DNA from: Fistulifera solaris
Lineage: Eukaryota
Length of the DNA: 64,000 nucleotides
NCBI GenBank assembly: GCA_030295235.1
Contig: AP026155.1
Location: 62,001 to 126,000 of the forward strand
Direction of reading: 5' to 3'
Numbering within the stretch: the first letter of the stretch is position 1; the number at the start of each line of letters is the position of its first letter. The notes under the pieces are model-generated. The model ran no database searches. It was not told where the DNA came from and saw only the letters and a program-made list of their open reading frames with translations. Positions 1-54,511 of this stretch are shown in pieces. A program made the position numbers and the translations under genes.

Positions 1-30
1 TGCCGTTACATTTGCTTGTTTCGGCGGCAT
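1..30 (-). CDS. Probable 5' end of a gene running off the window (MPPKQANVTA...)
   Basis: Reverse complement of 1-30 reads ATG CCG CCG AAA CAA GCA AAT GTA ACG GCA; the region upstream of it is promoter-like. Only 10 codons are visible. Confidence 0.4.
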   Translation of the reverse strand, partial: MPPKQANVTA

Positions 31-165
31 CTTGAAGAACGGTTGTCAATAGAATCAAAAAACGAATAGCGCAACGATATCTTTGGCGAAAGATGTCGTT
101 CTTGAAAATATGAGAGAAAATCGAATGAATTTGCGATAGACGACGAACTCATGAAAATCGTTGCA

Positions 166-433
166 ACGTCATAAAAAGCGTTTGTCAGTTTAACTGTCTC
201 CTTTCAGAGATTCTTACGTCAGCAAACGTCACTCATTATGATGCGTCCCACGTAGACTTACGTAGGAAAAAAGTGTGAGAGATTAAGGTTAGGGATTCGG
301 AAGCTGGATTTTCAGTGCTTACGTCACAAAATTCGATTGGAATTCCACAGCAACTTGAGGTTATTATGCTCCACCACAAACATAACCTGTAAGGATGAGG
401 ATTCGGAAGCTGGATTCTTTTGTGCCTACGTCA
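166..433 (-). promoter_or_regulatory. Cluster of five TGACGT (bZIP/aureochrome-type) hexamers, two within a ~45-bp direct repeat
   Basis: ACGTCA at 166, 216, 226, 321 and 428; GGATTCGGAAGCTGGATT...TACGTCACA occurs at about 293-328 and 399-435. Confidence 0.45.
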
Positions 434-981
434 CACCTTGGGAGAAAAATTCCGGTAAACAACAGATTGTTTGAGACTAGAAAAATCGTATTGCCCTGGC
501 CACATCATCAACAGTCGTCAAGGTGATGGTGGAACGACGTGTTGACACGTTGGAACCTTGGAGGATCACCAACCAGTTTCCATCAAGTGGCAACGAAAGA
601 CAAGGCGGATAAATTCGTGAATCATCAATCGACCCGTGACGACTCTAGGGACATGAACGCCGTACGACCAATCTTTAACTACAGTTTGCTGTTAAAGGAA
701 TAATTCAGTTTAAGCTGTCTGTATGAACGAAAAGCAGTGTGAGCAAGTCACTCAGAGCACTTTAGAGCAAAATCATAGTGGCTATGGTATTGCTTAAATT
801 CCAAAAATTGCGAGGGCCAGATCACATTGTTCTGAAATCGATACTTCATTTCATTCCCCTCTCTTTCATTCGTTATCTTATTGTAAAAAAAGCCCGTGAG
901 TGATTCATCATTGAATGAGATCATAATGTAAACTTTCCGATCAGTAAAGTTTTCAAGCATAGACCACAGACCACAGACTGC

Positions 982-2696
982 CTATTCTTTCGCATCAGTT
1001 GAGGACGAATGCGTGAGTTGATACTGCCGCAAGGCAAAGTAACTGGTCGCCGACAAAAGCATCGCTGCTGACGATTGCATGGCAACAAGATTTCCTGTAA
1101 GATCCGCCAAAATACCAGTCATACTGGCTCCAACGAGGAATCCAACATCCCCACCCGTGCGAAGCATCGCAATGGCTTGAGCACGATGAGACGGTTTCAC
1201 TATATCACTGGTATAAGAGACTGGAGCCGTACTGAGCATACTGCTGCCAGCGGCCCATAAGGCCAAACATGGAGCCAATGTCGTCACATGTGTGAGTTGG
1301 TAGGGTAACGCCATCATGGCGGTACTGATCAATGTACAGCCAACTACCATGGCGGGTACTTTCCCAAATCGATCCGCACCGCTGGCGAAAATGGGGTTGC
1401 CCACGATTTGAATCATGGACATGCCCATGTACACTTGCCCCACCTGAAACGCGGATAAATTCATTTGTTCCGTCAACACAAGAGGCAATAAAGTCATTTG
1501 GGAACCTGCTAAACTGATCCAGTACGCCATGTTCATGAAAAGGACCGTTCGAAGTCTCGAATCTTGAAACAAGGGCCACCATTGTCCAAGCGCATTCTGT
1601 ACTTCAATAGAGATCGATGGTGATGTCTTGGTGGTAGTCGTTATGTTTGCTGTTGCTGCTGAGAGCAGAGATTTTTCTTCGAATTTCGGCAGCGTTTCTT
1701 TTAACAGAAAACGATTCAGCGTCGCTACACCCACATAGGAACATGCGACTGTCGCGAACGTCGCTTGCAATCCAGCAGCATCCACCATGTAACCGCCCAA
1801 GGCCGGTCCTAGTGCCGTCCCGGCCGCAAACGCACTCATAATCGGCGCCAGAGTACTAGCTCGATTGAGTGGTGTACTGTTGTCCGTGATCATCAATGTC
1901 CCCGCAGTACTCAACGCCGCCACCCCCAAGCCGGTGAACAAACGACACAAATACAATTGTTCGAAATTGGCCGCCCATCCCATACCACCAACAGCCACAG
2001 CAATGACTCCCAAACTATACGTCATGTAGGGCTTCCGTCCGTGTCGTTCGACCAAGACCGCTGCCGGTATATTGCCCATCATTTTCGCCAAACCGAACGC
2101 ACTCACGACCGTTCCGTATTGCCCGGCGGTCAACTGAAGTTGTTGTACGACAAATGGCATAGCCGGCGTGGTTACCCCAACACTTGTCCCCACCAGTAGC
2201 ATACTAACGATAATTGGCCAAGTTTGGTGCCAATCGACGCTAGAGGCGCGTTCGTGCAAAGCCTGAACGAATTGATCGCGTGTCAAGTGTGGCTGTTGCT
2301 GGTTGTCATTTCTATCAGTGTTGTTGCCTCCTAGAGCTTGCCATATTTCCCGAAATTCACTGGATTTTGTGTAGTTTATTTCTGTGAAAGATACTTGTGT
2401 CGAAGGTGCAGTAGGAGGACGCTGAAATAAATAATCATGCAATTCTTGCTGTGACAGTTGATTGTGTTGCATTTTAGGGATTCGATCAAAAATTTGATGC
2501 ATTTCTTGTGTTGTAAAGATTCCAAGCCTAATGATCGATACAATTGCTGCGTAGAAACGGTTCGCTTGATGATCATTGACAAAGAAGGAGGTTGTATGCG
2601 AAAGAATACAGAAGACAACACGGATGAGGAACCGAAGAAAGAGCCGTTGCAGTTTCTCGGTCGTTTCCCGAAGGAGCGTATGATTCTATAGCTCAT
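982..2696 (-). CDS. Major facilitator superfamily transporter (DHA1/TetA-like) with a soluble N-terminal extension
   Basis: ORF 982-2502 has about 12 hydrophobic segments and MFS motif A variants (LVERHGRK, GADRFGKV). The likely ATG at 2696 is in another frame, implying one frameshift between ~2500 and 2685. Confidence 0.85.
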
Positions 2697-3226
2697 ACTT
2701 TTTTCTGTTAATATTTTGTTAAGACATGTATCTAGTTTTGTTTCACTTCCTTGATTCCTTTCCCTTAGTTGCTTGTTGTTGTTATTGATGTGATACTGTA
2801 ATATTGGTACTGGTATGCTCAACGATGTTATAGCTTCTGTTGTTGCTTCCTTTTTCCTTTGCGTTTGGATGCAGCGCAAAAAACGAACGCCGCGTGTTTG
2901 GAAGGTCGACGACTATTGGTTGTACACATAATACACAGTACCCGTACCAGTATCCGGGTGCCCCCTACATTTTCGATTTCTAATGAAATTCTTAACTCTA
3001 TTGCAATAACGTACGCACAACGGACCAAAGTTTGCCCCTAAAGTCGTCCAACTTTTTTCGCGGGCGCTGCGTTACTAGTACGTAGTATTGTTCTCCGCAT
3101 TTCCGGCGGTCATGCTTCCTGTTTCCTGTCACACTCCGTGTGTTGTTTTGTTTTGTTGCTTATCATTCCTTTCCCTTCCGCCTTCTCTATCTCTGTCTCT
3201 ATCTCTCTAAAGAATCGCTACCAAGT

Positions 3227-9064: not shown

Positions 9065-12000
9065 ATGGTAAACAAGTTGTTAAAGCCTTCCGAAGAGGAA
9101 GTTCTCTTGCGCATGGCAAACGGCGACGGCGATGACTTTTCTACCTTCGGTCAAGACGACGATGACGAGGACTCTTCCGATGAAGAATCGTTGGAAGAGA
9201 AAGGTTCCGTCAATGAAGCCCGACGAGATGTGAAACTCATGAATGTAGTGCGAGCTATGGTTATACTATTTTTACTCACGGTGGCGTGTATTGGGTCAGA
9301 GGTAGCCTTTGTCATGGCCGTGTTGGGGAGAGGAACGTGTCTTTCGCAACAGCTATTATGAAGCTGCGGAAATGATCACGGAAAGGTTTTATAGTCACAT
9401 TCACGATGATTTGTGGTTGAGTAAGACACTGGCCGCGCAATTGAATCAAGCTGCAGGCACAACGAGTAACTGGCCGAACGTGACGTACGCGGACTTTCAC
9501 GAGATTTGTGAAGGCCCGTTGTATTTGAGCAGCGCCACAATGATCCACTGGACTCCGGTGGTCTCCAACAAGGAAGCGTGGGAAGCTTATGTCGCCTCAA
9601 CGTATCCGGCGAATCTGGATCAGTCGGCCATTGTGTCGGAGTCGTCCGTATCCTTTCATGTTGCGGAAACGCTCCAACTACACGGCTTTTCGCAAGGTAG
9701 GGTCTACAAGGTAGAAGAAACGAAAGATTTGTACTATCCGATCTGGCAGTCCTCTCCTTCCTTTGATCAAGGAATGGGTACATCGTTCGAAGAAGGCACC
9801 AATCCGGTACGAAAATCTTCTCTCTATGAAGTCATGCGACGAAAAGGAAGCTATCTGAGTCGCATGTTCTACAACGATACAAGTGAAAGCGATTTCGCGG
9901 TGTACAAGACACCACGTAGCATGATTTATTATCCAGTTGTGGAGGCTGAACAAGTGGTTGGCGTGGTCAATTTGGAATTCGAGTTCTCGAACTTTTTCAA
10001 AAACGCCTTGGATGATAAGGATTATCAAACAGCCATTCATGCCGTGGTCAAGAACACGTGCGATGATGATATGTATACCTTCAGTATCACCGGCTCGTCG
10101 GCGGAATACCTCGGCATCGGCGACAAGCATAACTTGGACGACGGCTTTGAGGTTCGCAGTATTGCGCCAGAAGGATACCTTGCACTCTTAGATGAGCATG
10201 GCAACCTTCCCATGAATGAGACTTGTTTCTACCAGATCAGGCTTTATCCTTCGAAGGCGTTCAAGAACAGTTTTGCCACGTGGGCCCCTGATATCTATCG
10301 TGCAATTTTACTCGGCTCATTTTGTTGCATTATTGCCGTCTTTCTGGCGTACGATAAGCTAATCGAGCGCCACCAGAAGAACGTCATCAGCGCGGCGGAA
10401 CGATCCGATGCAATTGTCCGCTCGCTTTTCCCTGCCAACATCCGCGATAAGCTATACGAAAAGGCGAAACGGAAGGAAGAAGAAAAACGACAACGACAGA
10501 AGCAGGCCAATTCCTTCCTTGCTAGTGATGCGGGTTCTATTGGCTCAGGAAGCGCCGGAAAGGGAGGACTGATTGTGACGAATAAAAATAAGTTGAAGAA
10601 ATTTGTAAATGACGGCGGTCGCTTCAAAAATGCATTTGAAGATGATCCAATCGCTGATTTGTTTCCGCAGACCACAATTTTGTTTGCCGATATTGCAGGT
10701 AAGTAATCGCGTTCTCTTCAACTGTTCATTTTGGTAGGAGATTGCATTGCTTACATTTGATAATCAAAGGATTTACGGCATGGTCGAGTGAGCGTGAGCC
10801 TTCACAAGTATTTACTTTGTTGGAGAACATTTATGCTGTAATGGACAAATTGGCGAAAAAGAACAATGTATTCAAGGTGGAAACTGTGGGAGACTGCTAC
10901 GTAGCAGCGACAGGTCTTCCAGACCCTCAAGAGCAGCATGCGGTCATTATGGTTCGATTTGCTCAAATATGCTTGGTAAAAATTAGAGAGTTGGTCTTGG
11001 CATTGGAGTCGCAACTCGGACCTGGAACAGCTGACTTGGCTATGCGGGCTGGTATTCACTCTGGGCCCGTCACGGCAGGAGTCTTGCGAGGTCAAAAGGC
11101 ACGATTCCAACTGTTCGGTGATACGATGAACACCGCAGCCCGTATGGAGAGCAATGGATCTCCTCACAAAGTCCACATTTCGAGCGAAACTTATGAGTAC
11201 CTGAAGCAAAGTGGAAAGGCGCACTGGGCAACTCCAAGGGAAGAGCTCGTTCATGCCAAGGGTAAGGGCTCGGTGCAAACTTACTGGATCAAATCGGTGT
11301 CCGGAGGCAGTTCCGCGGCAAGTTCGAGTGATGATATGAACGGCCCTGCAAGAAGGGTATCACACTTGTTAGCCACGACGAAACCCTGGGAGGGAACTTA
11401 TCTGGAACAGTATTTCGGTCTTACGGACGTAAGCGACGCACTTGAACGCCTAGTCAACTGGAACGCGGATTTGCTTGCATCGTTGCTTAAGTCGATCGTT
11501 GCTTCACGAGTAGCTGCTGGTCGACCTGGTAGTGCCCCGGTGATTTCAGAAAGGAAAGTCGCCGGCGATTTAGTTTTAGACGAGATCGAAATGGAAATTA
11601 AGGTACCCGACTTTGATGCCATTGCAGCTGAAGAAATTGAAAACGTGATGTCGAAGGTCCAGCTTCCCGAGTTTGTCAAGAACGAGCTTCATGATTTTGT
11701 GGCATGTATCGCTTCAGGGTACATGCATAACTCATTCCATAACTTCGAGCATGCCTCTCATGTGATTCTGTCCTCCAATAAGTTGCTAAAGCGAATCATG
11801 TCACTAGACAATCACAAAAACAACTCCACCGGTGAGGCGATCACGTCGCATGATCTCTATGAGCATACCTACGGAATCGGTACCGATCCATTAACGCAGT
11901 TCGCCATTGTCTTCTCGGCCCTCATTCACGACGTTGGTCACGTCGGTGTTCCCAATTTCGTCTTGGCTGAAGAAAATCCAGATCTCGCCGAGCGATATGT

Positions 12001-13040
12001 TCAGAAGAGTATTGCTGAGCAGCATTCCGTCACCGTTGCATGGGATTTGTTGATGCAACCTCATTTCCGAAATCTACGATCGTACATCTATACGACCGAA
12101 GAAGAATGTGTCCGCTTTAGACGGCTATTGGTCAACATGGTCATGGCAACCGACATTTTCGATCCTGACTTGAAAGCTTTACGAGCTTCTCGTTGGGAGA
12201 TGGCGTTTGGCGAGGAAGCAGGAACCAACAGCGCTCTGAATATCGCTCGCAAGGCAACCATTGTCATTGAGCACGTGATTCAAGCTTCGGACGTTTCTCA
12301 TACCATGCAGCATTGGTACATTTACAAGGTAAGCAACAAAAGCACACCTTTCAATCTCCGTGCCGCCCAACTGTTACTGACACTCGTTTAAATCAAAACA
12401 GAAATGGAACGAACGGCTTTTCGAAGAGATGTACACGGCCTTCGCCGAAGGAAGGACGAAAAAGGATCCATCGGAAGGCTGGTACGGTGGCGAAATTTGG
12501 TTCTTTGACAATTACGTGATTCCGTTAGCCACAAAGCTCAAGAAGTGCGGTGTTTTTGGCTTTTCGAGTGACGAGTACCTAAACTACGCCATCCAGAATC
12601 GTATGGAATGGGAAGCCAAGGGACAAGAAGTAGTGGAGGCAATGAGAGAAAGAGTGATCTCAAAACTTGCTTTGAAACACGAGATAGAAAAGAATGAAGA
12701 CATTCCGATGGAAATCACCATGTCGTCGGAGCCCGAGACCAAGCCGGCACTTGAGTCTGTTCTAGAGTCTATTGAGGAAACAGTCGATGCTCCCTTATGC
12801 ACAGTAATCGCCCCCGCTGGAAAGCTTGGTGTCATTATCGATACGACTCCGGGCCAAACGACAATGGTGCACCGCGTTCTTGAGAATTCACCTATGATGG
12901 GAATGATCAAACCGGGCGACCAAATCGTTTCCATTGATAGTATTCCTACCAGTAACATGTCGACCGAAGCGATTGCCGCGTTGATAAAGTCAACAGCTGC
13001 TCATCCACGCCGCTTTGTCATCCATAGGGACACGGATTAA
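9065..13040 (+). CDS. Receptor-type nucleotide cyclase-phosphodiesterase fusion with extracellular sensor region and C-terminal PDZ domain
   Basis: TM - extracellular CHASE/Cache-like region - TM; class III cyclase (FADIAG|FT, KVETVGDCY, RFQLFGDTMNTAARMES); PDE (FHNFEH, IHDVGH, MATD, QASDVSH); PDZ (GKLGVII...GDQIVSID). Introns 10699-10769 and 12329-12401; one frameshift at the G run near 9325. Confidence 0.9.
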
Positions 13041-15787: not shown

Positions 15788-17369
15788 TTATTCCTCCTTT
15801 TCTTCTTCTGAGGCATTCACACCGTACGTTTCCAAGAAAGTTAAGGAATTTGCCATTGCTATTGGAGACACACCCGGCACGGCTTCCATCCGCTCTGGAT
15901 TGCGAGGTGCTTGAGAAATCAGAATTGGGACCCGACAAAACACAGACTTCTTAGTGTTGACGAAATCCCGACTTTTACCCACACGAATTTCCAACGTGTA
16001 GCTCCACCGGAGGCATGGGTAAGCATTTTCTGTAAAAGGTTGCGGAACACCACCATTGAAGCTCGGGAATACCGAAGGAATTCGAACCTGTTCGATGCCG
16101 TCAAGGTCTTGGATCGAAACAGTGCTTTGGGCCGGTATCGTTGACTGAAACAGATCAAAGTAGCAAGGAAGAGTGAAATGCCTAAAGTTCGTTCCCCCCA
16201 TACTTTTCATGCAAAAGACGAGTTGCGTCAAGACGACAAAGAAAGGCAAAGGTTTGTCCGAGTCATTCACAACTTCACCAGTCATATGAACTGCTTCATC
16301 GGGGGCATACACAAGTCGCTCTAGATGCAGTTTCGAGGAGATCAAACCTGATGATTTGCAACAATACCAACCGCAGTAGCAGTAGTTATAGATGGGCTGA
16401 TCTAATGTTTCAATTTGAGCTGGCATCCAGAGAGAAACTTGGGGTCGGGGGGAGCCTGGGGGTCACGTTTATGATGATTTCTGCAATGGGGTCTCTCCAG
16501 TGCGTTGTGTAGATTCGAGTTTGCAAAGTGTATCGAACTTGGCATTTGTGGGGAGACAATAATGGGAACTCCGCCGACCCCGGTGCATCGGCACGAAGTG
16601 CAAAAGCAAAGGGTGTGGTCACCGCTTCGTCAGGCAAATGGATCATTTTGCCTGGCGTTACAGCCTTCGCTATGCGGTAAGCTTTCACACAGACATCATT
16701 ATGAGTCAACCAAGCCTTTGACAACCCTGTTGCCTCGTGCACTTGCAAAACCAAACACAACGGTTTCAACAATAGTGAACTGATTGGTATATCTTGGCTT
16801 TTTATAGGATACCTAGCTCGCTCTTGCATAGGATACACCTCATTGTAAGGGAGAATCCTGGCCGATAAGGTTATAGATGCATATCCGTTCTTGTTTCTAC
16901 CGTTCTTCGTCAACTCGAAAGTCTCTTTGGTTCCTAAACTTACAAGATTGGGAACGTCCAAAAGCATTTCTCCCAAAATCATGTCTTGAGTTCCGCGATC
17001 GCGTCCGTTTACCCGGACAACCAATGGGAAATGGTGTTCTTCCGACAAATCGCATGGAATACGAAGGATGCCCGAGTTGGGGACTTTATCGAAATACGCA
17101 TCTCTACCGGCGTCTTCTAAGAAGGCTGTACGAGAGAACGGAGCATACAGTGTTTCACATTGCACTTGAAGTATAGTCTTTGCTTTAAATTCCTGACGAT
17201 CATCGCCCGAGTCTTCGTACCATTTCACTCGTGAGCTGGCCTCAAAGGTCACGAAGGCACCCTTGCATTTCAGTCCAGACGCTTTAACTGTGACTGTGCC
17301 TCGCACGACTTCTCCTGCGAAATAAGCACCATTGGGTCTTTCCAGGTCAAAGCGGATGAGCGGACGCAT
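15788..17369 (-). CDS. Arrestin-fold protein with degenerate inserted C2 domain (shorter paralogue of 18249-20360)
   Basis: YFAGEVVRGTV (arrestin N), PFAFALRADAPGS, LERLVYAPDE and IPSVFPSF align with the neighbouring gene; one frameshift in C runs near 16445. Confidence 0.75.
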
Positions 17370-18248
17370 GTTGCCGTGGTGCCCGCAAAATTGTGAGCCT
17401 CGGAAAAGATTTCCTCAATGTTTTTGCTCTGAGCTGAGTCGTTATTCGTTAGGTCATTGGCAATCGGAACTCGGAAGCCGGATGACGAATGAGCGCTTCT
17501 GATTTTGACAGTTCGATCTTTGACAACACTAAGGGATTTTTGTACGATGTACCGCTGCGTCGGAGCAAAAAGACAAAAAGTCTTTGGGCCCATAACATTT
17601 CTCAATTCGCGAGATGCAAGTGCAACAAGCAACAATTCTTAATTCTTAACTGGAAATGCAAGTGCAACATATTTCGATCGCCGTATCTTTTGGGTGCTTG
17701 AAAAGTCAAGAGGCAATAATAAGAAATAAGAAACGAGACGGTTGTGTCTTGTGTCCCGAACCCGAACGCACTAATGCCGGAACTTCTCGAAGTCCTTCTA
17801 ATTGGGTACTAGTAACTAGTAGTGATTCCATCTAATTTCCCTTAAAGCTTAAAAAGCCGTTTTCGCTGCAGCCTCAAATCTCAAATACATTGTCAGCTCG
17901 AAAAAATCGCAAGCGTTTTTCACGAGTCACGAATGACAGACTGTATATAATGAACTTCATAAAAACCAGAAGCTATTGAAAATGAAAATGAATAATCTAG
18001 TTTAACATCCTATCGTTGTTCTGGGTACTCCGCCATATAGGTCGGAACGTCAAGAGGTCTTGAGGTCATACCAAGTCGGAACCGGGTAAAGTCGCCATAG
18101 CTTGATTACGCATAGACCTTCTTAACTATCAAAGTATAAGCACATAGGGAAATTAAAAATCCAAGCAAGACATGCCGAGCTGCCATTAGAATCCTAAATT
18201 GCAGGTGGTAGAACAACAGGCATTTACAAGAATCTCGATAACACCTCC

Positions 18249-20360
18249 TCAGCGCTCAAAGAGAAAGTCAATTTGCTCCAGAACGACTTCTTTGTTTTCC
18301 GGGTCTTTCACGTGCGGAACCATAAGCTTCGCAACGTCCGCTTTTTGGAAAGAACATGACTTCATCGTGGCCACAACATGGGCACAAGTGAGCTTCCCAG
18401 TGCCTTGAAACGCTACAACTAGTTCGCCTACGACAGCATCTTTGTCCAAAGAAAAGTTAACTTCATCCAGAATTCGGGTCAAGTCATTTGGGGAAAGGTT
18501 TTGTGCCTGCGCGGGGTATTTGCGAACCCACTGCCCTACAGTGCGCTGCTTATCAAACGAATCATCCATTTCCTTCAGCAACTCGTCCATGATTGCGTCG
18601 TGGGTAGATCCCGCTGCATCCGTGAACGCTGCTGGTACATACGGCGAAGCTGCTGAAAATGTATGAACCATTGGTTCATAATTCAGTAAGCTTCCGTCAA
18701 CATTGTCTGTATCTTCATTGGCATTGTAGGCATTGACTGTTCCGGTGTGCTCCGCTGCGATTGTGACACCCCCATCCTCGGGACCCGTAACCGTCGGTGC
18801 TGTATCGATTTCTCGTAAATCCGTCACAGCATACGTTTCGAGAAAGTGGAAAGGATCCGTTGCTTCGACCGGTGGCATGCCGGAAGCAGCCTCGATCTGA
18901 TGAGAGTACGGAGCCGCCGAACAAATTAAAACTGGAACTCTAGCATGAACTTCAGTCATTCCGCAGCAGCTGTTAATGCTTCCTCCTATGGACACTTGAA
19001 ACGTATAGCTCCATTTGACACATGGATAAGCAGCGGCCGTATACGGACTTGGCATACCACCGTAAAAGCTTGGAAATACCGTGGGAATACGAATTTGATC
19101 GATACCAGGAAGGTCTTTCAAGCATATGGAGCTCTGAGCCGGTACAGTGGATTGGAAGAGTGTGAAGAAGCGATCCCCTCTCGTTTGTGTTCCTCTTGAC
19201 GTTCTCATAAGGACACATACCGTCAAGACAATAGAGAACGGCAACGTCTTATTTGAATCGTTCGTGACTTCACCCCCAAGACGAACGCTTTCTCCCGGCG
19301 CATACGCGAGACGCTCTAGATGCAATTTGGTGGAAATTAAACCCGATAACTTGCAACACCTCAATCCGCAGTAAGAACAATCGTAAATTGGTTGATCCAG
19401 TGCTTCGATTCGAGCCGGAGCCAAGAGTGCCAACTGAGGCAACGGACGATTGGGAATGACTTGCAATATTCGTTTGACGCTTGGATCTCGCCAATTGGCC
19501 GTATCAATGTAGGCGCGCAAACAGTATCGGATATGACATTGGTCTCCCACTCCCGGAAATTCCGCAGAGCCCGGCGCATCAGCGAGAATTTGAAAGGCAA
19601 AAGGCATTATCAACTCCTCGTTTGGTATTTCGATCGTTTTGTCGGGCTTGGGAAGAGCCTTGGTGATGTCGGCATTGCCATCTGGTGGCCGGTAGACCTG
19701 TACATAGACGTCGTTCTTTCCGAAGTAATCTCCTCTTCGCAATCCCACGGCTTGATGAATTCTCAAGACCAAGCACAGAGGTTTCTTGACAACCACACTG
19801 ACATTCACACCCGACCGACTGCGTGTCGGAAAGACCGCCTCGTACGGAAGAAATTTAGCGGATAGCGTAATGAATGAATCCACGTTTCTTCCATTCCTCA
19901 TCATTTGAAATGTTTCCTTTACGCCAGAATTCACCAATTGCGGCACATCGAGCAATATTTCACCTAATAAATCATCTCGTTTACCCCAATCATAATCGTT
20001 TACACGAACGATGAGAATCCAATTCTTTTCTTCCGACAAATCACACGGGATGTATAGGACACCCGAATCGGCGACTCGATCGAAGCAAGCATTCTCTCCG
20101 GCTTCGTCTAACAAACCAGTACGGAAATAGTTTCCATATAGCGTATGCCGTTGCTCTTGAAAGGTTGTATTTCCGTCGTAATCCGATCGGTTATCTCCCG
20201 AGCCCGTGTGCCAGTGCACATGTGCAAAACCTTTGAAGCTCAAAAAGGCGCCTCGGCATCTTTGTCGAGGTGCTTGGATGGTTACCGTCCCTCGTACGAC
20301 TTCTCCGGCGTAATAGACTCCATCAGGTCGCTCTAATTCGATGCGAATGAGCGGGCTCAT
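18249..20360 (-). CDS. Arrestin-fold protein with inserted C2 domain and C-terminal DUF4476-like helical domain
   Basis: Arrestin N/C motifs (YYAGEVVRGTV, PFAFQI...PGS, IRYCLRAYID, YAPGESVRL); C2 motifs (VRVNDYDWGKRDDLLG; LRIHQAVGLRRGDYFGKNDVYVQV); tail ...LMVPHVKDPENKEVVLEQIDF. Confidence 0.8.
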   Translation of the reverse strand: MSPLIRIELERPDGVYYAGEVVRGTVTIQAPRQRCRGAFLSFKGFAHVHWHTGSGDNRSDYDGNTTFQEQRHTLYGNYFRTGLLDEAGENACFDRVADSGVLYIPCDLSEEKNWILIVRVNDYDWGKRDDLLGEILLDVPQLVNSGVKETFQMMRNGRNVDSFITLSAKFLPYEAVFPTRSRSGVNVSVVVKKPLCLVLRIHQAVGLRRGDYFGKNDVYVQVYRPPDGNADITKALPKPDKTIEIPNEELIMPFAFQILADAPGSAEFPGVGDQCHIRYCLRAYIDTANWRDPSVKRILQVIPNRPLPQLALLAPARIEALDQPIYDCSYCGLRCCKLSGLISTKLHLERLAYAPGESVRLGGEVTNDSNKTLPFSIVLTVCVLMRTSRGTQTRGDRFFTLFQSTVPAQSSICLKDLPGIDQIRIPTVFPSFYGGMPSPYTAAAYPCVKWSYTFQVSIGGSINSCCGMTEVHARVPVLICSAAPYSHQIEAASGMPPVEATDPFHFLETYAVTDLREIDTAPTVTGPEDGGVTIAAEHTGTVNAYNANEDTDNVDGSLLNYEPMVHTFSAASPYVPAAFTDAAGSTHDAIMDELLKEMDDSFDKQRTVGQWVRKYPAQAQNLSPNDLTRILDEVNFSLDKDAVVGELVVAFQGTGKLTCAHVVATMKSCSFQKADVAKLMVPHVKDPENKEVVLEQIDFLFER

Positions 20361-20737
20361 GGACGTAAAAAGTAAGTTCTTCGAAAAAAAATGACTTTCA
20401 GAGAGCGTTTCCATGCAGCCAGCATATGAGAGCCAGCATGTCGTTACTTATTGTTGTTCTTCCGAATGAATATTCACTCGGAAGAAGAAAACGTGTCAAC
20501 ATTCAAACGATGCTTCGTACCGGTATTGATTTTTCGAACGCCAAACGGCTCTCCGTCGTGTCGTATGCTAAGGGTTTGGGTCGGGAAAGCGTGTCTATCT
20601 AAAATCATGAGGGAGAAAATCAATAATCTCAACACCACTTCATGGAGCATGACAATATTCTCGAGACCTGATACTCGGTAACGTGTGAAGTACTCCGGAG
20701 GAGTATATTAGACTTCGTTGCTCGCCCTATATTGTCG

Positions 20738-21713
20738 TCAACCTTCACAATCCAAGCTAGTCTCGGCACGTTGCGATAGATGTACGGGGCAAGATACACG
20801 AGGATTGGTCGTACGATCTGTTGCAGTTTCCGCAATCACTTCAATGGAATACTTTAAATGAAAAAGAGAACCCGCGTAGGCTTCGCACAGAATGCTTTCG
20901 GGCACTTGAAAGGATGCTGTTGTAGGTTCCCCGGCCGTTTTACTCTTGGCCTTCCACGCAGATAAGTCCCGAGTATTCACTTGCGTACTCGCCAATATTC
21001 GCTGAATCTTCACGTTACGAAAGGATGGATGCATCAAAGTCACCGATTCTATCAATCGCACTACGAAATCTTTGATATCGACGTCACTTTGATTCTGTCC
21101 CACAATCGATACACTCACCCAATCGCCGGCAGTCCATACATTCGAAGTACACTGCCATCCCAAGTATATCTGTCCACGGGAAAAGACTAGGTTCGTGGAA
21201 ATGGGAAAACTTTGCGGCATCATGACAACGAGTTGACCTTGCCTATTTGCAGGTTTCTGTTCTGCCGCTTGTACCGTCAATAGTTTTGTTGATTTCCACT
21301 TGACGGCAGATCGTGATGTGATGACATATGCCGAGAGTGTGTAGACAATTCCGACTGTCGCGTCGGGCTCGGCCACCTGCCAACTGTCAGGAAGGTCTGC
21401 TGGTAACGACACTTCAAAAGTCGTACGAATGGACACCCGAATACACCAGCGGTGTATGAAACTCCTGTATGACTAGGGGATATTTGAGAAAGGTCTCTTC
21501 TCGAACCTTTCCGTCGTAAGAAACTCGCTCTCGACCGTGCAACTCGAGTTGAATACGATACAGATCCGCCGCGTCATCTTTGTCCGTCAACGTCCATTCG
21601 ACAGTTCCTTGTATCATTTTTTGTCCTGTCGTAACCGCATCATCGGCTAAGTGGATGGATAATGGGGACTGATTGCTGGAATTGCAGTGAATCGTCATGT
21701 TGGTTCGATACAT
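20738..21713 (-). CDS. Compact arrestin-like protein (no C2 insert)
   Basis: IQGTVEW...LELHGRERV...GVHSYDF|EVSLPADLPDS...IVYTLSA...LKYSIEV...NPRVSCPV; one extra T in a homopolymer near 21417 splits the ORF. Confidence 0.7.
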
Positions 21714-22120
21714 TATTGGTATGGATGAGTCGAATGATGACTGATGATTCGCTCATCCAGCCAGATTAATGGTGGTGTTGTTGTCAAGAAAATCTCGACA
21801 TGATGCGTCAAAATGAGACGGAACAGTGGTGCGACTTTATCTTGTTTTGTTTTGAAGTTAAGGGCCTTGACAGCAAAACATCCAGCGTTCAAGTTTATTT
21901 ATCTCGCAACGGTAGCAATAATTGTGGCTAGCAAAATAAATTGATAACGTGCTACTTTTGGGAATGCGTTTTTGTACCCATTCTGAACCTAATACAAATC
22001 GGCTCTACGCCTAAGTGTTCTCCCTACGACGCGATCTATTGGCTATAATTAAAGAAAGTCAGCTATCCCTTCGCACAGACTCTTTACCTAGACTTTCATC
22101 ATTCAATTCTTTCTTTACGG

Positions 22121-23375
22121 TCACTCATACTTGAAAGTCGGTTCTTTGCCAGAAATGTTCTGCGCGGCCACAATATTGCACAGTTCCGCCATGCGCTTCG
22201 AATAACCCGCTTCGTTGTCGTACCATGCGTAGATTTTAACCAAGGTACCATCAATGACTTGCGTAGACAAAGCGTCAATAATGGCGCTACGTGTATCGTT
22301 CGTGTAATCCGTCGAAACCAGAGGCAAGGTCTCGTAACCAAGAATTCCTTTCAAAGGACCACTTTCACTGGCTTTCTTCAACGCTTCGTTGACTTCTTCT
22401 TTCGTCACACTCTTTTGACAACAAAGACACAATCGGTGAGACTAGCATTGAGGAGTGGCACTCGTACCGCGAGGCCATTCAATTTTCCTTTCAAATGAGG
22501 ATAAATTTCCACAATGGCCGTAGCACTTCCGGTACTCGTGGGGCACAAATTGACCATGCCACTCCGGGCACGACGCAAATCACTCTTTTTGGTGTTGGGC
22601 ATATCGACAATGGTTTGCGTGCCGGTGACATCCTGTAATTGTTGTAAGGAAAAACCAGATAGCGATAGAGAGATACAAAACGCAGTGAGTGGCCCGTATC
22701 ACACTGCAAAGGATGGATGCGACGTCTTTGAACTTACATGAATGGTAGTGATACAGCCTTTTTGAACGCAAACAAGTAGGAGAAATCCGTTAGAATCAAC
22801 ACGGTTCAACATGGTCGAACAGCAAGTTTTTCATCGATAGGATACGCACCATGAACAATACCAAAGTTCTCTTCAATCACCTTGACGACAGGAGCCAAAC
22901 AGTTGGTAGTGCACGATGCATTGGTGACCAACTTGGTTTCTTTGGATAGTTTATCATGATTGCAACCCAAAACAACATTCAAAGCCCCATCTTCTTTGAC
23001 CGGTGCACTGACGACGACTTGCTGAATGCCGCATTCATCGAAATAGGGCTGCAAACTTTGTACTGTTAGAAATTTGCCAGTACATTCCATCACCAACTCG
23101 ATACCCATACTTTTGAAATCGACCTTGGTGAAGTCTTTTTCTTGACTAAAGGTGACTGTTTTACCATCCACGGTAAAACTCTTGCCATCGTCGGCATGCG
23201 CGACTTGTTTGTTCCATGTTCCATGTACACTATCGTACTTGGCCAAATAAGCAGCCGACTCGCAACTGCAAAGATCATTGACATGAACGATTTCAAGTTC
23301 GGGATCTTCCCAAGCGTAGCGGAAACAGAGACGACCGATTCGTCCGAATCCGTTAACGGCACACTTGACGGGCAT
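22121..23375 (-). CDS. GAPDH: Glyceraldehyde-3-phosphate dehydrogenase, Gap3/ArsJ-associated type
   Basis: [64 protein letters not shown]. Introns 22758-22849 and 22633-22737; one missing base in a homopolymer near 22414. Confidence 0.95.
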
Positions 23376-52118: not shown

Positions 52119-52586
52119 GCTAAATGAAGAAAATACGTACTGTAATGAAGAAAAGAGGGAAAAACTAAGATAGATTGATCGTAATAGCAACAAAGATCCT
52201 TTGCTGTGACATCCAGGATTGCAAAAAAAATCATGTCGTGTTTTCAGCGGATCGGAAACCTTTTGGGCGCACACCTTTTTCATTCGCGGTGTGTCCCGGA
52301 CCTCAAGAAAATTTTCCTTTGTCGTATAGGTACCAAAAGAAGTCTCTCATAGTAAACAGTACAAATGCGTCAGTTTCGAAGAAGTTGTGTACGACGATAC
52401 GCAAGATGCCGACGGAAACTGGGCCAAACAGAAAATTACATCAGAAAAGAGGCGGTACCAGGTATAGGTCAGTCAACTCAAATATCTTTTGGGTTTGTTC
52501 ATCGATGTTCTCACAACCATTCTTCTGCTCTACTACTCATCTGGAGTTGCTCGAGCATCGATCCTTCCTTGCTACAGCACATTATC

Positions 52587-54511
52587 ATGAAGAGTCTCAT
52601 TCAAGATAGCTCACTCACCAGCTTGTCGGCACTCTGGGTCACCTTATGCACGGGCTTGGTATGGAAGCACCCCGAGCTCCTCCTCGTATTTGTCAGTTTT
52701 ACTACATGTTTTGCAATTGCCTTTGTTTTGGGACATCCGCAAAACAAAGTTCGTGTGCAAATTGGCATCATGGCGTGTGTCTTGGCGCTCCTATCACTCT
52801 ATCACTTTCGCGTTCCGCCTCCGGAATATCTCGCTTTGAGCATTCTCGTTGGTTTCTTGGCCTTTGATCACTGGTACTCGGCCATGTACTGCACGAAACC
52901 TTTGGCCGTTGCCGTGGAAGATGCCCTGACACTTACGCTACAACTCACTCTACTGGTACTCGTGCTATCCTCCGACCAGCAAGCCTGGTGGTCATCGTAC
53001 CGATCCTTTCTTTTGACATGGACCGTATACAAAATCACTCGTTTGACTTGGCAAGTGGATCAGGTTCCATCATCGGGTGATACGAAAAAGCGTGGGGTAC
53101 CCGCAACGACAAACGGCACATCAAATGAGTTTACAAAAACTCAAATTACGAGTAGTAAAGAGCCATTTTTCTCCCACTCCGACAGGCTCTGGACTATTCG
53201 AGGTGAACAATACGATTTGAATGAGTACATTTCGCTTCATCCCGGAGGAAAGGAAGCCATTTTACTTGGAAGAGGTCGTGATTGCACGGCTCTCTTTGAA
53301 TCGTACCATCCTTTCACACAACAACACGAAACAGTTTTACAAAAGTATCGAATCCACAAAACAGACACCGACGTTTCTTCCAAAGATCCATTTTATAGTA
53401 TTCTCTGCCAACGTGTTCAAGAGAGTCTCAAGGAGCAAAACTTTCATCCTCGAAACGATCGTGCTGCCTCCTGGCTTCGATGTTTTTATTATGCTATCAT
53501 TGTAACGGGCGTGTTGTTGTCGGCTCGGGCACACTTCAAGGTACGGTGCAGATTGCAGTGGTCGGTTGAGAGCTTTTCATAGGACATCATCACCTCATTC
53601 CTTTCTTTCAGGGCAGTATTTGGGGAAGTTTCTTTTTGGCAGTGTTCGGGTGGTTGGTGGGAGCTCTGGGACACGACGCCGGTCACTATTCCGCGAGTCG
53701 AAGTGCGTGGATGAATGATTGGGGTGTATGGGCCATGTCGTTCTTGTGTAACCCCATCATGTGGCAGCATCAGCATACGTATGCGCATCACAGTCACACA
53801 AATTCCTTTGAACACGACCCCGATTTGCACCATTTTGTCACGTTCCTCCGCGTTCACCGAAGATTCCAGCACAATGATGTCTACAAGTATCAGTCCAACG
53901 TGCCTTACGTCATATTTGCCTACTGCTTCGTTTGTTTCGGTACTTGTTTTTGGGTTCCAATGTCTGTGATACAAGAAGGCGGCATCTATGGAATGGTCGA
54001 GTGGACTGACCGCAAACGCCCTCTTCGTGCTTTGGGAATGTGGGCTCATCTGTTGGTGTACGTGGGATTTTTGATGGTTTGGCCCTTCTTCGTGCATTCT
54101 ACTTTGTTAAAAGGTCTCTGTGCGGTGGTTGCCCATGTTGCTACTTGCGGTCTTTTGTTCGCACTCTTTTCTCAAATCAACCATCTAAACGAAGCTTCCC
54201 TAGAACGCAAACAGCAACACGACAACCCACTCTTGAAGAATTCCTGGGCCGTTGCGCAAATCGAAACTTCGAATAACTTTTGCCCACAAAGCAGTTTCTG
54301 GCATGTGCTATCCAACGGTCTGAACTTACAGATTGAGCACCACCTTTTCCCAGGTCTAAATCATTGTCACTTGTACCGAATCCAACCTATCGTGCAGGCC
54401 ACCTGCAGGGAGTTCGGTGTCGAGTACAAGAGCTATCCCAGCTGGAGTGAGTTAATGAATGCCACTCTACAATGGCTAGATAAACTGGCCAAAGCCCCAT
54501 CATCTCATTGA
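52587..54511 (+). CDS. Front-end (cytochrome b5-fused) fatty acid desaturase with N-terminal multi-TM extension
   Basis: HPGG, HDAGH, QHTYAHH and QIEHHLFP boxes; intron 53541-53611. Confidence 0.92.

What the first reader, a model, noticed from the sequence alone, without database searches (positions are those of the whole stretch)
22121..23375. Intron-bearing GAPDH of the bacterial arsenate-detoxification (Gap3/ArsJ-associated) class
Seen: [62 protein letters not shown] and KIYAWYDNE. Established: these features typify the Gap3/ArsJ-associated clade rather than eukaryotic GapC (which has HA.TATQ.TVDGP and VRVPT..VSVVD). In Pseudomonas this GAPDH makes 1-arseno-3-phosphoglycerate for export by ArsJ. 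No targeting presequence is visible, and two spliceosomal introns show it is not bacterial contamination. Inference: a cytosolic arsenate-handling GAPDH of bacterial origin; no arsJ lies in this window.
Basis: partly seen in the sequence, partly recalled or inferred. Interest (0 to 1): 0.7.

Follow-up and report, generated by a model that had tools for sequence, protein, structure and literature searches.

The report
Diatom arsenate-type GAPDH, intact and expressed
This diatom gene encodes a working copy of the special glyceraldehyde-3-phosphate dehydrogenase that bacteria and green algae pair with the ArsJ exporter to get rid of arsenate, so diatoms probably share this already described detoxification route.

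Summary
Window 22121-23375 (minus strand) is a three-exon GAPDH gene of the diatom Fistulifera solaris: 351 of 352 residues match GAX16459.1. RNA-like contigs skip both predicted introns exactly and confirm a 20-nt middle exon. Contigs of run X1 carry the extra base, so this is probably an assembly error.

The class assignment is supported. The full protein scores 473.5 bits on NCBIfam NF033735, ArsJ-associated GAPDH (cut-off 450). In 65 of its 80 nearest bacterial loci, arsJ lies directly downstream. In the tree it sits in a clade (SH-aLRT 100) with those bacterial genes and Chlamydomonas GAPDH3. Grouping it with GapA/GapC-like sequences is rejected (p-AU 1e-5).

F. solaris has an ArsJ-like transporter (FisN_3Hh592) on another contig. 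The two genes are adjacent in Mayamaea and on one diatom-type metagenome contig.

Arsenate handling is inferred, not shown. The ArsJ-GAPDH3-PGK module was published for green algae in 2020, and this scan already met it in Ostreococcus (note e1-561054). I found no paper extending it to diatoms. I rate it a new member of a known kind, of moderate interest.

The parts
22850..23375 (-). Exon 1 (526 nt): start codon, NAD-binding domain and the first part of the catalytic domain, including the active-site SCTTNC
   Evidence: Translation P0001. Pfam Gp_dh_N 5.7e-33. 100% identity to P0004.
22758..22849 (-). Intron 1, 92 nt, GT..AG
   Evidence: Sequence. Contigs of X3 and X4 skip 92 nt from 22756 to 22849 (table 5).
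22738..22757 (-). Exon 2, a 20-nt micro-exon encoding (G)CITTIH with the catalytic histidine
   Evidence: In X3 record 19 and X4 record 24, 20 letters lie between the two laid pieces, and both joints have side 20.
22633..22737 (-). Intron 2, 105 nt, GTAAGT..TTACAG
   Evidence: Contigs of X3 and X4 skip 105 nt from 22631 to 22737 (table 5).
22121..22632 (-). Exon 3 with the stop codon at 22121-22123; rest of the catalytic domain and a diatom-specific tail of about 12 residues
   Evidence: Translations P0002 and P0003. Pfam Gp_dh_C. Comparison with P0004.
22413..22416 (-). Homopolymer (AAAA on the gene strand) where the window lacks one base, so the frame breaks
   Evidence: Extra T in contigs of X1 (26.1 of 26.1) and X4 (41 of 41) (table 4). 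GAX16459.1 and GAX19462.1 both read VVKKSV.
22064..22120 (-). 3' untranslated region up to a likely poly(A) site
   Evidence: An X3 contig with 0 mismatches ends at 22064 with a loose run of 22 T on the + strand (tables 7 and 8).

Best explanation
The gene encodes an intact, transcribed, presequence-less (so probably cytosolic), NAD-type phosphorylating GAPDH. It belongs to the ArsJ-associated clade, which green-algal work calls GAPDH3. Shown: it descends from the same clade as bacterial GAPDHs that sit directly upstream of arsJ, and as the Chlamydomonas GAPDH3 that lies in the ArsJ-GAPDH3-PGK3 neighbourhood. It has since gained spliceosomal introns and is conserved across diatoms. Inferred mechanism: when arsenate enters the cell, this enzyme uses it in place of phosphate on glyceraldehyde-3-phosphate and makes 1-arseno-3-phosphoglycerate. 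The unlinked ArsJ-like MFS transporter of the same genome (FisN_3Hh592) then exports that compound, lowering cytosolic arsenate. The frameshift in the window is an assembly error, not biology.
For: Identity and integrity: 351 of 352 residues match GAX16459.1 once the A-run is read through. The extra base is present in the contigs of X1 and X4. Spliced contigs and a poly(A)-like end are seen. The second F. solaris copy differs at about 9% of the laid coding bases (records 2, 4 and 6) but at only 7 of 352 residues, which indicates purifying selection. Class: NF033735 gives 473.5 bits against a cut-off of 450. Orthologues in Phaeodactylum, Fragilariopsis and Epithemia score 486.7, 480.9 and 471.8. 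Bacterial context: 65 of the 80 nearest bacterial loci have an ORF directly downstream that passes the ArsJ model NF033734. Tree: a clade of 48 rows, SH-aLRT 100 and branch length 0.64, holds all arsJ-linked bacterial rows, Chlamydomonas CHLRE_07g354200 and all diatom rows. All 12 other GAPDH paralogues from five bacterial genomes fall outside. FastTree gives the same split. The AU test rejects union with GapA/GapC-like rows. Clade-specific residues are shared by diatoms, other eukaryotes and arsJ-linked bacteria. Partner: F. solaris P0228 and eight other diatom-type proteins hit only NF033734, at E 1e-93 to 1e-106. Linkage elsewhere: on L091 an ArsJ-like ORF lies head-to-head with the GAPDH. 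In Mayamaea the locus tags are MPSEU_000337700 (ArsJ-like) and MPSEU_000337800 (GAPDH), reported on contigs of the same length. Function of the module: Chlamydomonas arsJ and pgk3 mutants are arsenate-sensitive, and bacterial GAPDH plus ArsJ act as an efflux system (passages of PMC7826186).
Against: No experiment or expression data connect the diatom gene to arsenate. In F. solaris the two genes are unlinked: no ArsJ lies in 64 kb, and the partner sits on a contig of another length. Five other eukaryote-like contigs (L086, L087, L094, L096, L131) show no ArsJ in their flanks. The diatom ArsJ-like proteins score 314-355 bits, below the curated cut-off of 400, and carry an inserted Cys-rich loop. 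Phaeodactylum, Fragilariopsis cylindrus and Thalassiosira pseudonana were not named among the 120 listed ArsJ-like hits in either search, although the first two have the GAPDH. That could mean the GAPDH is kept without ArsJ. The Phaeodactylum orthologue B7GC94 is detected as protein in cultures without added arsenic (table row in PMC9153171). Ordinary GAPDHs also accept arsenate: arsenate is part of the standard assay quoted in PMC6198282. A PGK3/4-like partner was not looked for.
Confidence: 0.55

Rival explanations
1. The enzyme is simply a second cytosolic glycolytic/gluconeogenic GAPDH. Its descent from the ArsJ-associated clade is history only, and it no longer works with ArsJ.
For: It is unlinked from the ArsJ-like gene in F. 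solaris. No ArsJ lies next to it on five other eukaryote-like contigs. Phaeodactylum and Fragilariopsis have the GAPDH but were not named among the listed ArsJ-like hits. B7GC94 protein is present and mildly up (about 1.5-fold) under low nitrogen and high CO2 without arsenic. All catalytic residues of a normal GAPDH are kept.
Against: Clade-specific residues next to the catalytic histidine and in the TGSATAI and [13 protein letters not shown] segments are kept unchanged between arsJ-linked bacteria and diatoms. ArsJ-like genes are widespread in diatoms, including this species. Adjacency survives in Mayamaea and on L091.
Confidence: 0.35
2. The gene is a pseudogene broken by the 1-nt deletion seen in the window.
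For: The window as written stops at codon 258.
Against: Contigs of X1 (both copies) and X4 carry the extra base. A second homopolymer-length difference lies in intron 1, which points to length errors in the assembly (table 4). The annotated protein reads through. Apart from this site there is no damage, and 351 of 352 residues match. Spliced transcripts exist.
Confidence: 0.03
3. The gene is a bacterial contaminant in the assembly.
For: The nearest non-eukaryotic relatives are bacterial.
Against: Two GT..AG introns are removed in transcripts. GC content (0.46) is like the rest of the window. The flanking ORFs are eukaryotic in type: arrestin, clathrin adaptor, protein kinases. The gene is 71-84% identical across many diatoms but only 53-62% to bacteria.
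Confidence: 0.01

Closest known systems
Green-algal GAPDH3 of the ArsJ-GAPDH3-PGK3/PGK4 neighbourhood (Chlamydomonas Cre07.g354200; Foflonker and Blaby-Haas, Mol Biol Evol 2020/21, PMC7826186)
   Same: 61% identical. It falls in the same eukaryotic subgroup of the ArsJ-associated clade, with support 90. Both pass NF033735: 458.7 and 473.5 bits. Both are intron-bearing nuclear genes in a genome that also encodes an ArsJ-like MFS.
   Different: In green algae the genes are neighbours and co-occur, and a PGK-like gene joins them. In F. solaris the genes are unlinked, and no PGK-like gene was seen among the window's ORFs. No diatom mutant exists. That paper does not mention diatoms.
Bacterial ArsJ-associated GAPDH (NCBIfam NF033735; the Pseudomonas aeruginosa ars-island GAPDH of Chen et al. 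2016, known to me only as cited in PMC7826186)
   Same: It passes the family cut-off. It is 53-62% identical. It shares the clade-specific residues and the clade.
   Different: It is a eukaryotic nuclear gene with introns, not in an operon with arsJ. It has a diatom-specific C-terminal tail of about 12 residues.
Eukaryotic cytosolic GapC and E. coli GapA-type GAPDH (NCBIfam PRK15425)
   Same: Same fold, same catalytic Cys and His, same reaction.
   Different: It scores 273.9 bits against a cut-off of 662. It is placed outside that group, and union with it is rejected at p-AU 1.07e-5. It has HDVTGTQ, TGSATAI and [13 protein letters not shown] where the outgroup consensus differs.
Pteris vittata GAPC1 plus OCT4 arsenate pathway (Cai et al. 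2019, known to me only as described in PMC7826186)
   Same: The same proposed chemistry: a GAPDH makes an arseno-phosphoglycerate that a transporter moves.
   Different: According to that passage, the fern uses an ordinary plant GAPC and an unrelated transporter, so it is a convergent solution.

Membership tests
ArsJ-associated GAPDH (NCBIfam NF033735) | Whole-protein score at or above the curated cut-off of 450 bits, and the best-scoring model | tested here: met
   P0004 scores 473.5 bits. The next model, PRK08955, gives 433.3, below its own cut-off of 563. The three exon pieces of the window each hit NF033735 best.
ArsJ-associated GAPDH (NCBIfam NF033735) | Falls in the clade of GAPDHs whose genes lie next to arsJ, apart from housekeeping paralogues | tested here: met
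   Clade with SH-aLRT 100; 12 of 12 other paralogues fall outside. FastTree agrees.
ArsJ-associated GAPDH (NCBIfam NF033735) | Gene lies next to arsJ | tested here: not met
   No ArsJ in the 64-kb window. An ArsJ-like gene exists on another contig. Adjacency is seen in Mayamaea by locus tags and on L091.
ArsJ-associated GAPDH (NCBIfam NF033735) | Makes 1-arseno-3-phosphoglycerate for export and confers arsenate resistance together with ArsJ | not testable with these tools
   Needs enzyme assays and genetics.
Green-algal GAPDH3 module (ArsJ-GAPDH3-PGK3/4) | Groups with Chlamydomonas Cre07.g354200 | tested here: met
   P0252 is CHLRE_07g354200v5. It lies in the same eukaryotic group, 21 rows with support 90.
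Green-algal GAPDH3 module (ArsJ-GAPDH3-PGK3/4) | ArsJ-like gene present in the same genome | tested here: met
   P0228 of Fistulifera solaris: its only NCBIfam hit is NF033734, E 6.7e-106, 354.8 bits, below the cut-off of 400.
Green-algal GAPDH3 module (ArsJ-GAPDH3-PGK3/4) | Non-canonical PGK (PGK3/PGK4) as a third member or neighbour | not tested
   No genome is held. No PGK domain was found among the 103 window ORFs scanned.
Eukaryotic GapC / GapA-type GAPDH (PRK15425) | Best model and clade membership | tested here: not met
   273.9 bits against 662. The AU test rejects the union.
Phosphorylating type I GAPDH (TIGR01534, Pfam PF00044 + PF02800) | Both domains plus the catalytic Cys (SCTTNC) and His | tested here: met
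   TIGR01534 gives 377.9 against 367.2. Pfam domains found. C155 and H182 are invariant in all 73 grouped rows of the 80-row alignment.

The most novel reading that the evidence does not exclude
Diatoms as a group may run a functional GAPDH3/ArsJ arsenate-export pathway that shares one bacterial origin with the green-algal one. The two genes are still physically paired in some species. This would be an unrecognised route of arsenate detoxification in the ocean's main silica-shelled primary producers, and it would probably matter most when phosphate is scarce and arsenate enters through phosphate transporters.
Probability: 0.45. Interest if true: 0.6.

Novelty: new member of a known kind. Interest (0 to 1): 0.45.

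Why it matters
Arsenate competes with phosphate in surface seawater, and diatoms are major primary producers. The routes usually discussed for phytoplankton are reduction, methylation and arsenite efflux (my own knowledge, not from a call). If the GAPDH3/ArsJ route works in diatoms, it adds a pathway that exports arsenic as a short-lived organoarsenical. It would also give two clear gene targets for knock-outs and for reading arsenic or phosphate stress in ocean metatranscriptomes.

The gene is also a clean example of a bacterial gene domesticated in a eukaryote. It has introns, including a 20-nt micro-exon through the active site, and has lost operon linkage.

On the practical side, the window shows that this assembly carries homopolymer-length errors, so other frameshifts in it should not be read as pseudogenes without checking reads.

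Tried and rejected
- **Whole-genome search for arsJ:** no genome is held for the window.
- **RNA evidence from records:** no RNA holder is listed.
- **Window MFS gene 985-2685 (-) as the ArsJ partner:** rejected. It is a generic MFS_1 with no NF033734 hit.
- **Bacterial-style promoter and terminator scan, and tandem repeats, around the gene:** nothing relevant.
- **The lead that this is 'GapC4' of Phaeodactylum:** PMC6477932 calls GAPC4 mitochondrial, and PMC4857112 lists GapC4 and 'GapDH3' without identifiers. I could not map these names to B7GC94.
- **Phosphate-deprivation paper on Phaeodactylum (PMC5825098) and mitochondrial glycolysis paper (PMC6198282):** the passages found say nothing on this gene.
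- **Chen et al. 2016 (PMC4992400):** not held, so it is cited only through PMC7826186.
- **Literature on ArsJ in diatoms:** 'ArsJ'+'diatom' gave 2 irrelevant papers. '1-arseno-3-phosphoglycerate'+'phytoplankton' gave 1 irrelevant paper. 'arsenate'+'diatom'+'major facilitator'+'GAPDH' gave 0. 'GAPDH3'+'ArsJ' gave only the green-algal paper. Supplementary Fig. 14 of PMC9812998 (arsJ tree with 'eukaryotic lineages') and the network figures of PMC7826186 were not seen and may include diatoms.
- **Whether Phaeodactylum has an ArsJ-like gene:** not resolved. It is not named among the 120 rows listed, but the lists are truncated.
- **Pseudogene and contamination readings:** rejected (see the rival explanations).

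Full report
**What is there.** On the minus strand of window 22121-23375 lies a three-exon GAPDH gene.
- Exon 1 (23375-22850) starts with the ATG and runs to the codon split by intron 1.
- Intron 1 (22849-22758) is 92 nt, GTGCGT..AAAAAG.
- Exon 2 (22757-22738) is a 20-nt micro-exon that encodes the catalytic histidine.
- Intron 2 (22737-22633) is 105 nt, GTAAGT..TTACAG.
- Exon 3 runs to the stop codon at 22123-22121.

Pfam finds the NAD-binding and C-terminal GAPDH domains.

**Organism and annotation.** Exon 1 is 100% identical to the Fistulifera solaris protein GAX16459.1 (P0004, 352 aa). The next 119 listed hits are 71-84% identical over exon 1. Those that carry an organism name are all diatoms: Phaeodactylum, Fragilariopsis, Epithemia, Cylindrotheca, Cyclotella, Mayamaea and MMETSP transcripts. 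F. solaris has a second copy, GAX19462.1, identical at 345 of 352 residues. The gene is already annotated as a GAPDH.

As written, the window lacks one base in the run AAAA at 22413-22416. One frame runs into TGA at 22407-22405 and the rest of the protein continues in another frame. The spliced sequence stops at codon 258. With N placed at the run, the translation equals GAX16459.1 at 351 of 352 residues, the only difference being that position.

I laid the contigs of four runs of one study (X1-X4).
- X1 behaves like genomic DNA. One contig crosses both introns with 0 mismatches and carries an extra T behind 22412, at depth 26.1 of 26.1. That depth covers both the contig identical to the window and the contig of the second copy.
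- X4 shows the extra T at 41 of 41, on the second copy.
- An X3 contig identical to the window stops exactly at the end of the run, leaving 7 loose letters.
- A second length difference lies in a T-run in intron 1 (table 4).

I conclude that the frameshift is a homopolymer error of the assembly and that the gene is intact. X1 may be the very sample the window was assembled from. Even so, it disagrees with the window at this base.

**Expression and splicing.** Contigs of X3 and X4 skip exactly 105 nt (22631 to 22737) and 92 nt (22756 to 22849), with CT..AC ends on the + strand, which is GT..AG on the gene strand. In two contigs with 0 mismatches to the window, 20 letters lie between the two laid pieces; these are the micro-exon (tables 5 and 8). 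The second copy is spliced in the same way (table 5c). One X3 contig ends at 22064 in a run of 22 T, which is a poly(A) tail on the gene strand (table 7). The runs are not on record as RNA. The spliced form is what shows that transcripts exist.

The second copy differs at about 9% of the laid coding bases (records 2, 4 and 6) but at only 7 residues. Both copies are therefore under purifying selection.

**Which GAPDH class.** Each exon piece hits NCBIfam NF033735, ArsJ-associated GAPDH, best. The full protein scores 473.5 bits against the curated cut-off of 450. The Phaeodactylum, Fragilariopsis and Epithemia orthologues score 486.7, 480.9 and 471.8. Apart from the general type I GAPDH model TIGR01534 (377.9 against 367.2), every other GAPDH model is below its own cut-off, for example PRK15425 (E. 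coli gapA/GapC-like) at 273.9 against 662.

A scan of bacterial and archaeal genomes returned 80 loci, 53-62% identical, mostly Rhodobacterales and Pseudomonas. I took the ORF directly downstream in 73 of them; the other 7 had none by my rule.
- 65 of these ORFs pass the ArsJ model NF033734.
- 7 gave nothing. In 6 of those I had picked the first of two overlapping ORFs.
- 1 is an Acr3 arsenite transporter.

So the nearest bacterial relatives are true arsJ-linked GAPDHs.

**Tree.** I collected all GAPDH-family genes of five of these bacterial genomes: 18 matches. Six are 54-59% identical to the diatom protein and the other 12 are 34-45%. I added 106 full-length representatives from a search of 1.84 billion proteins, 14 named diatom proteins, 10 eukaryote-like metagenome sequences and 24 arsJ-linked bacterial sequences.
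- **FastTree (172 rows):** a clade of 62 rows holds all arsJ-linked and all eukaryote-like rows. All 12 other paralogues lie outside.
- **IQ-TREE (80 rows, LG+C20+F+G4, quick search):** the same clade (48 rows) has SH-aLRT 100 and a stem of 0.64. Inside it the eukaryotic rows group together (21 rows, support 90, not starred), and the diatom-type rows form a clade of 16 (98).
- **Chlamydomonas:** one representative in that eukaryotic group, P0252, is CHLRE_07g354200v5. It is 61% identical to the window's protein and scores 458.7 on NF033735.
- **AU test:** holding the 11 named diatom rows together with the two rows best matched by the GapA/GapC-like model costs 166 log-likelihood units, p-AU 1.07e-5. 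I named that group after seeing the tree.
- **One unchecked row:** L169, a second Pseudomonas copy, was counted as arsJ-type by its place in the tree; I did not check its neighbours.

**Signature residues.** In the alignment of these rows, diatoms (16), other eukaryotes (4) and arsJ-linked bacteria (21) share residues that differ from the consensus of 32 outgroup rows. In P0004 numbering these are D/N183, T187, S218, T220, L242, A245, T248, C250, E283 and Y317. DLRRARS is not specific among bacterial GAPDHs. The catalytic C155 and H182 are invariant.

From memory, not from a call, the TGxAxA loop and the residues after the catalytic histidine line the phosphate sites of GAPDH. Changes there could bear on arsenate use. 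This is a lead, not a result.

**The partner.** No ArsJ lies in the window: a profile built from 20 bacterial ArsJ proteins gave a best E of 3.6 against all six frames. The MFS gene at 985-2685 is a generic MFS.

Among metagenome contigs that encode relatives, one eukaryote-like contig, L091, has an ArsJ-like ORF at 1-1242 (-) head-to-head with its GAPDH at 1625-2815 (+). L091 is 9174 nt with GC 0.43, has an in-frame intron in its GAPDH, and carries a helicase-associated-domain gene. Its GAPDH falls in the diatom-type clade. Five other eukaryote-like contigs (L086, L087, L094, L096, L131) show no ArsJ in their flanks. In L094 only about 650 nt are held upstream.

Searching with the L091 transporter listed 120 proteins. 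Those with organism names are diatoms: Nitzschia inconspicua, Seminavis robusta, Epithemia, Fragilaria crotonensis, Skeletonema menzelii, a Thalassiosira species, Mayamaea, and Fistulifera solaris itself. The F. solaris protein is P0228 (FisN_3Hh592, 596 aa), on a contig of 250,277 nt, whereas the GAPDH is on one of 154,420 nt. In Mayamaea the transporter is MPSEU_000337700 and the GAPDH is MPSEU_000337800, both reported on a contig of 1,239,468 nt, so they are neighbours.

Nine such proteins hit only NF033734, at E 1e-93 to 1e-106 and 314-355 bits. That is below the cut-off of 400. They carry long ends and a Cys-rich inserted loop. Phaeodactylum, Fragilariopsis cylindrus and Thalassiosira pseudonana are not named among the listed rows of either transporter search. 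The lists are cut at 120, so this is open.

**What is known.**
- Passages of Foflonker and Blaby-Haas (PMC7826186) describe a green-algal neighbourhood of ArsJ, a bacterial-type GAPDH they call GAPDH3, and a non-canonical PGK. ArsJ and GAPDH3 co-occur there. Chlamydomonas mutants in arsJ (Cre07.g354150) and pgk3 (Cre07.g354250) are arsenate-sensitive. The authors propose acquisition of GAPDH and ArsJ as a unit from bacteria. The paper contains none of the words diatom, stramenopile or Phaeodactylum.
- A passage of Cho et al. [quoted passage not shown] I did not see that supplementary figure.
- In the cyanobacterium Nodularia, the ArsJ-associated GAPDH and arsJ rise under phosphate limitation (table rows in PMC9846622).
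- Two earlier notes of this scan agree: the Ostreococcus copy of the green-algal cluster (e1-561054), and a marine alphaproteobacterial gap-arsJ operon behind a phosphate-starvation promoter (e1-2873942).
- My four literature searches found no paper on ArsJ in diatoms.

**Most likely working.** Shown: the gene is an intact, spliced, conserved GAPDH of the ArsJ-associated clade. It has no presequence: the Rossmann motif starts at residue 8 and bacterial homologues align from residues 1-6. The same genome holds an ArsJ-like transporter.

[quoted passage not shown] The ArsJ-like transporter then exports that compound, as proposed for bacteria and green algae. I put this at 0.55.

The main rival, at 0.35, is that the enzyme now serves ordinary glycolysis or gluconeogenesis. 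Four points favour it: the genes are unlinked here; the model diatoms may lack ArsJ; the Phaeodactylum orthologue B7GC94 is found as protein without arsenic; and ordinary GAPDHs also accept arsenate. Pseudogene (0.03) and contamination (0.01) are excluded.

**Verdict.** The module is already known in bacteria and green algae. Its presence in diatoms, with surviving adjacency in some of them, appears undescribed in the literature I could search. It is a new member of a known kind, and I score its interest at 0.45.

Noticed in passing
window 22759-22763 and 22413-22416: The window differs from contigs of run X1 by one base in two separate homopolymer runs, one in intron 1 and one in exon 3. The assembly therefore seems to carry homopolymer-length errors, and other apparent frameshifts in it may be artefacts.
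   Followed up: partly
window 985-2685 (-): A 567-aa ORF with a strong MFS_1 match (1.4e-52). It is a generic MFS, with weak best NCBIfam hits to multidrug and anion:cation symporter families, and is not ArsJ.
   Followed up: partly
window 10703-12388 (+): One open frame holds both an adenylate/guanylate cyclase catalytic domain (3.5e-44) and a cyclic-nucleotide phosphodiesterase domain (6.5e-19). This would be a cyclase-phosphodiesterase fusion.
   Followed up: no
window 16413-21472 (-): Three neighbouring ORFs carry arrestin N or C domains. The largest (18252-20447) also has DUF4476 and a weak C2 match. This looks like a small cluster of arrestin-domain genes just downstream of the GAPDH.
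   Followed up: no
window 52356-54508 (+): A cytochrome b5 domain ORF is followed by a fatty-acid desaturase ORF. This is probably one front-end desaturase gene split by an intron or a frame change.
   Followed up: no
L091 3109-5442 (-) and L094 2310-4661 (-): On two related diatom-type metagenome contigs, the GAPDH is followed by the same convergent gene: a roughly 780-aa protein with a Cys/Met-metabolism PLP-enzyme domain in its C-terminal half. The synteny is conserved and its meaning is unknown.
   Followed up: no
P0228, P0247 (diatom ArsJ-like proteins): Compared with bacterial ArsJ (about 410 aa), the diatom proteins are 545-640 aa. They have long N- and C-terminal extensions and a Cys-rich loop of about 50-60 residues inserted within the transporter core.
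   Followed up: partly
P0250 (2089 aa), P0263 (1455 aa), P0251 (509 aa): Unnamed representative proteins contain several GAPDH-like stretches, or one GAPDH domain inside a much longer protein. P0250 has four stretches and was the top-scoring hit. These may be fusions or gene-call artefacts.
   Followed up: no
L107 257-1279 (+) and 1393-1758 (-): A GC-rich (0.645) metagenome contig has a GAPDH that is sister to Chlamydomonas GAPDH3. An ArsJ fragment is convergent on it. This is probably a green-algal copy of the published cluster.
   Followed up: partly
P0004 residues 341-352: Diatom GAPDH3 proteins end in a conserved tail of about 12 residues (…EP[ST]F[KQ]Y[EK]). It is absent from the bacterial and Chlamydomonas relatives, and its function is unknown.
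   Followed up: no
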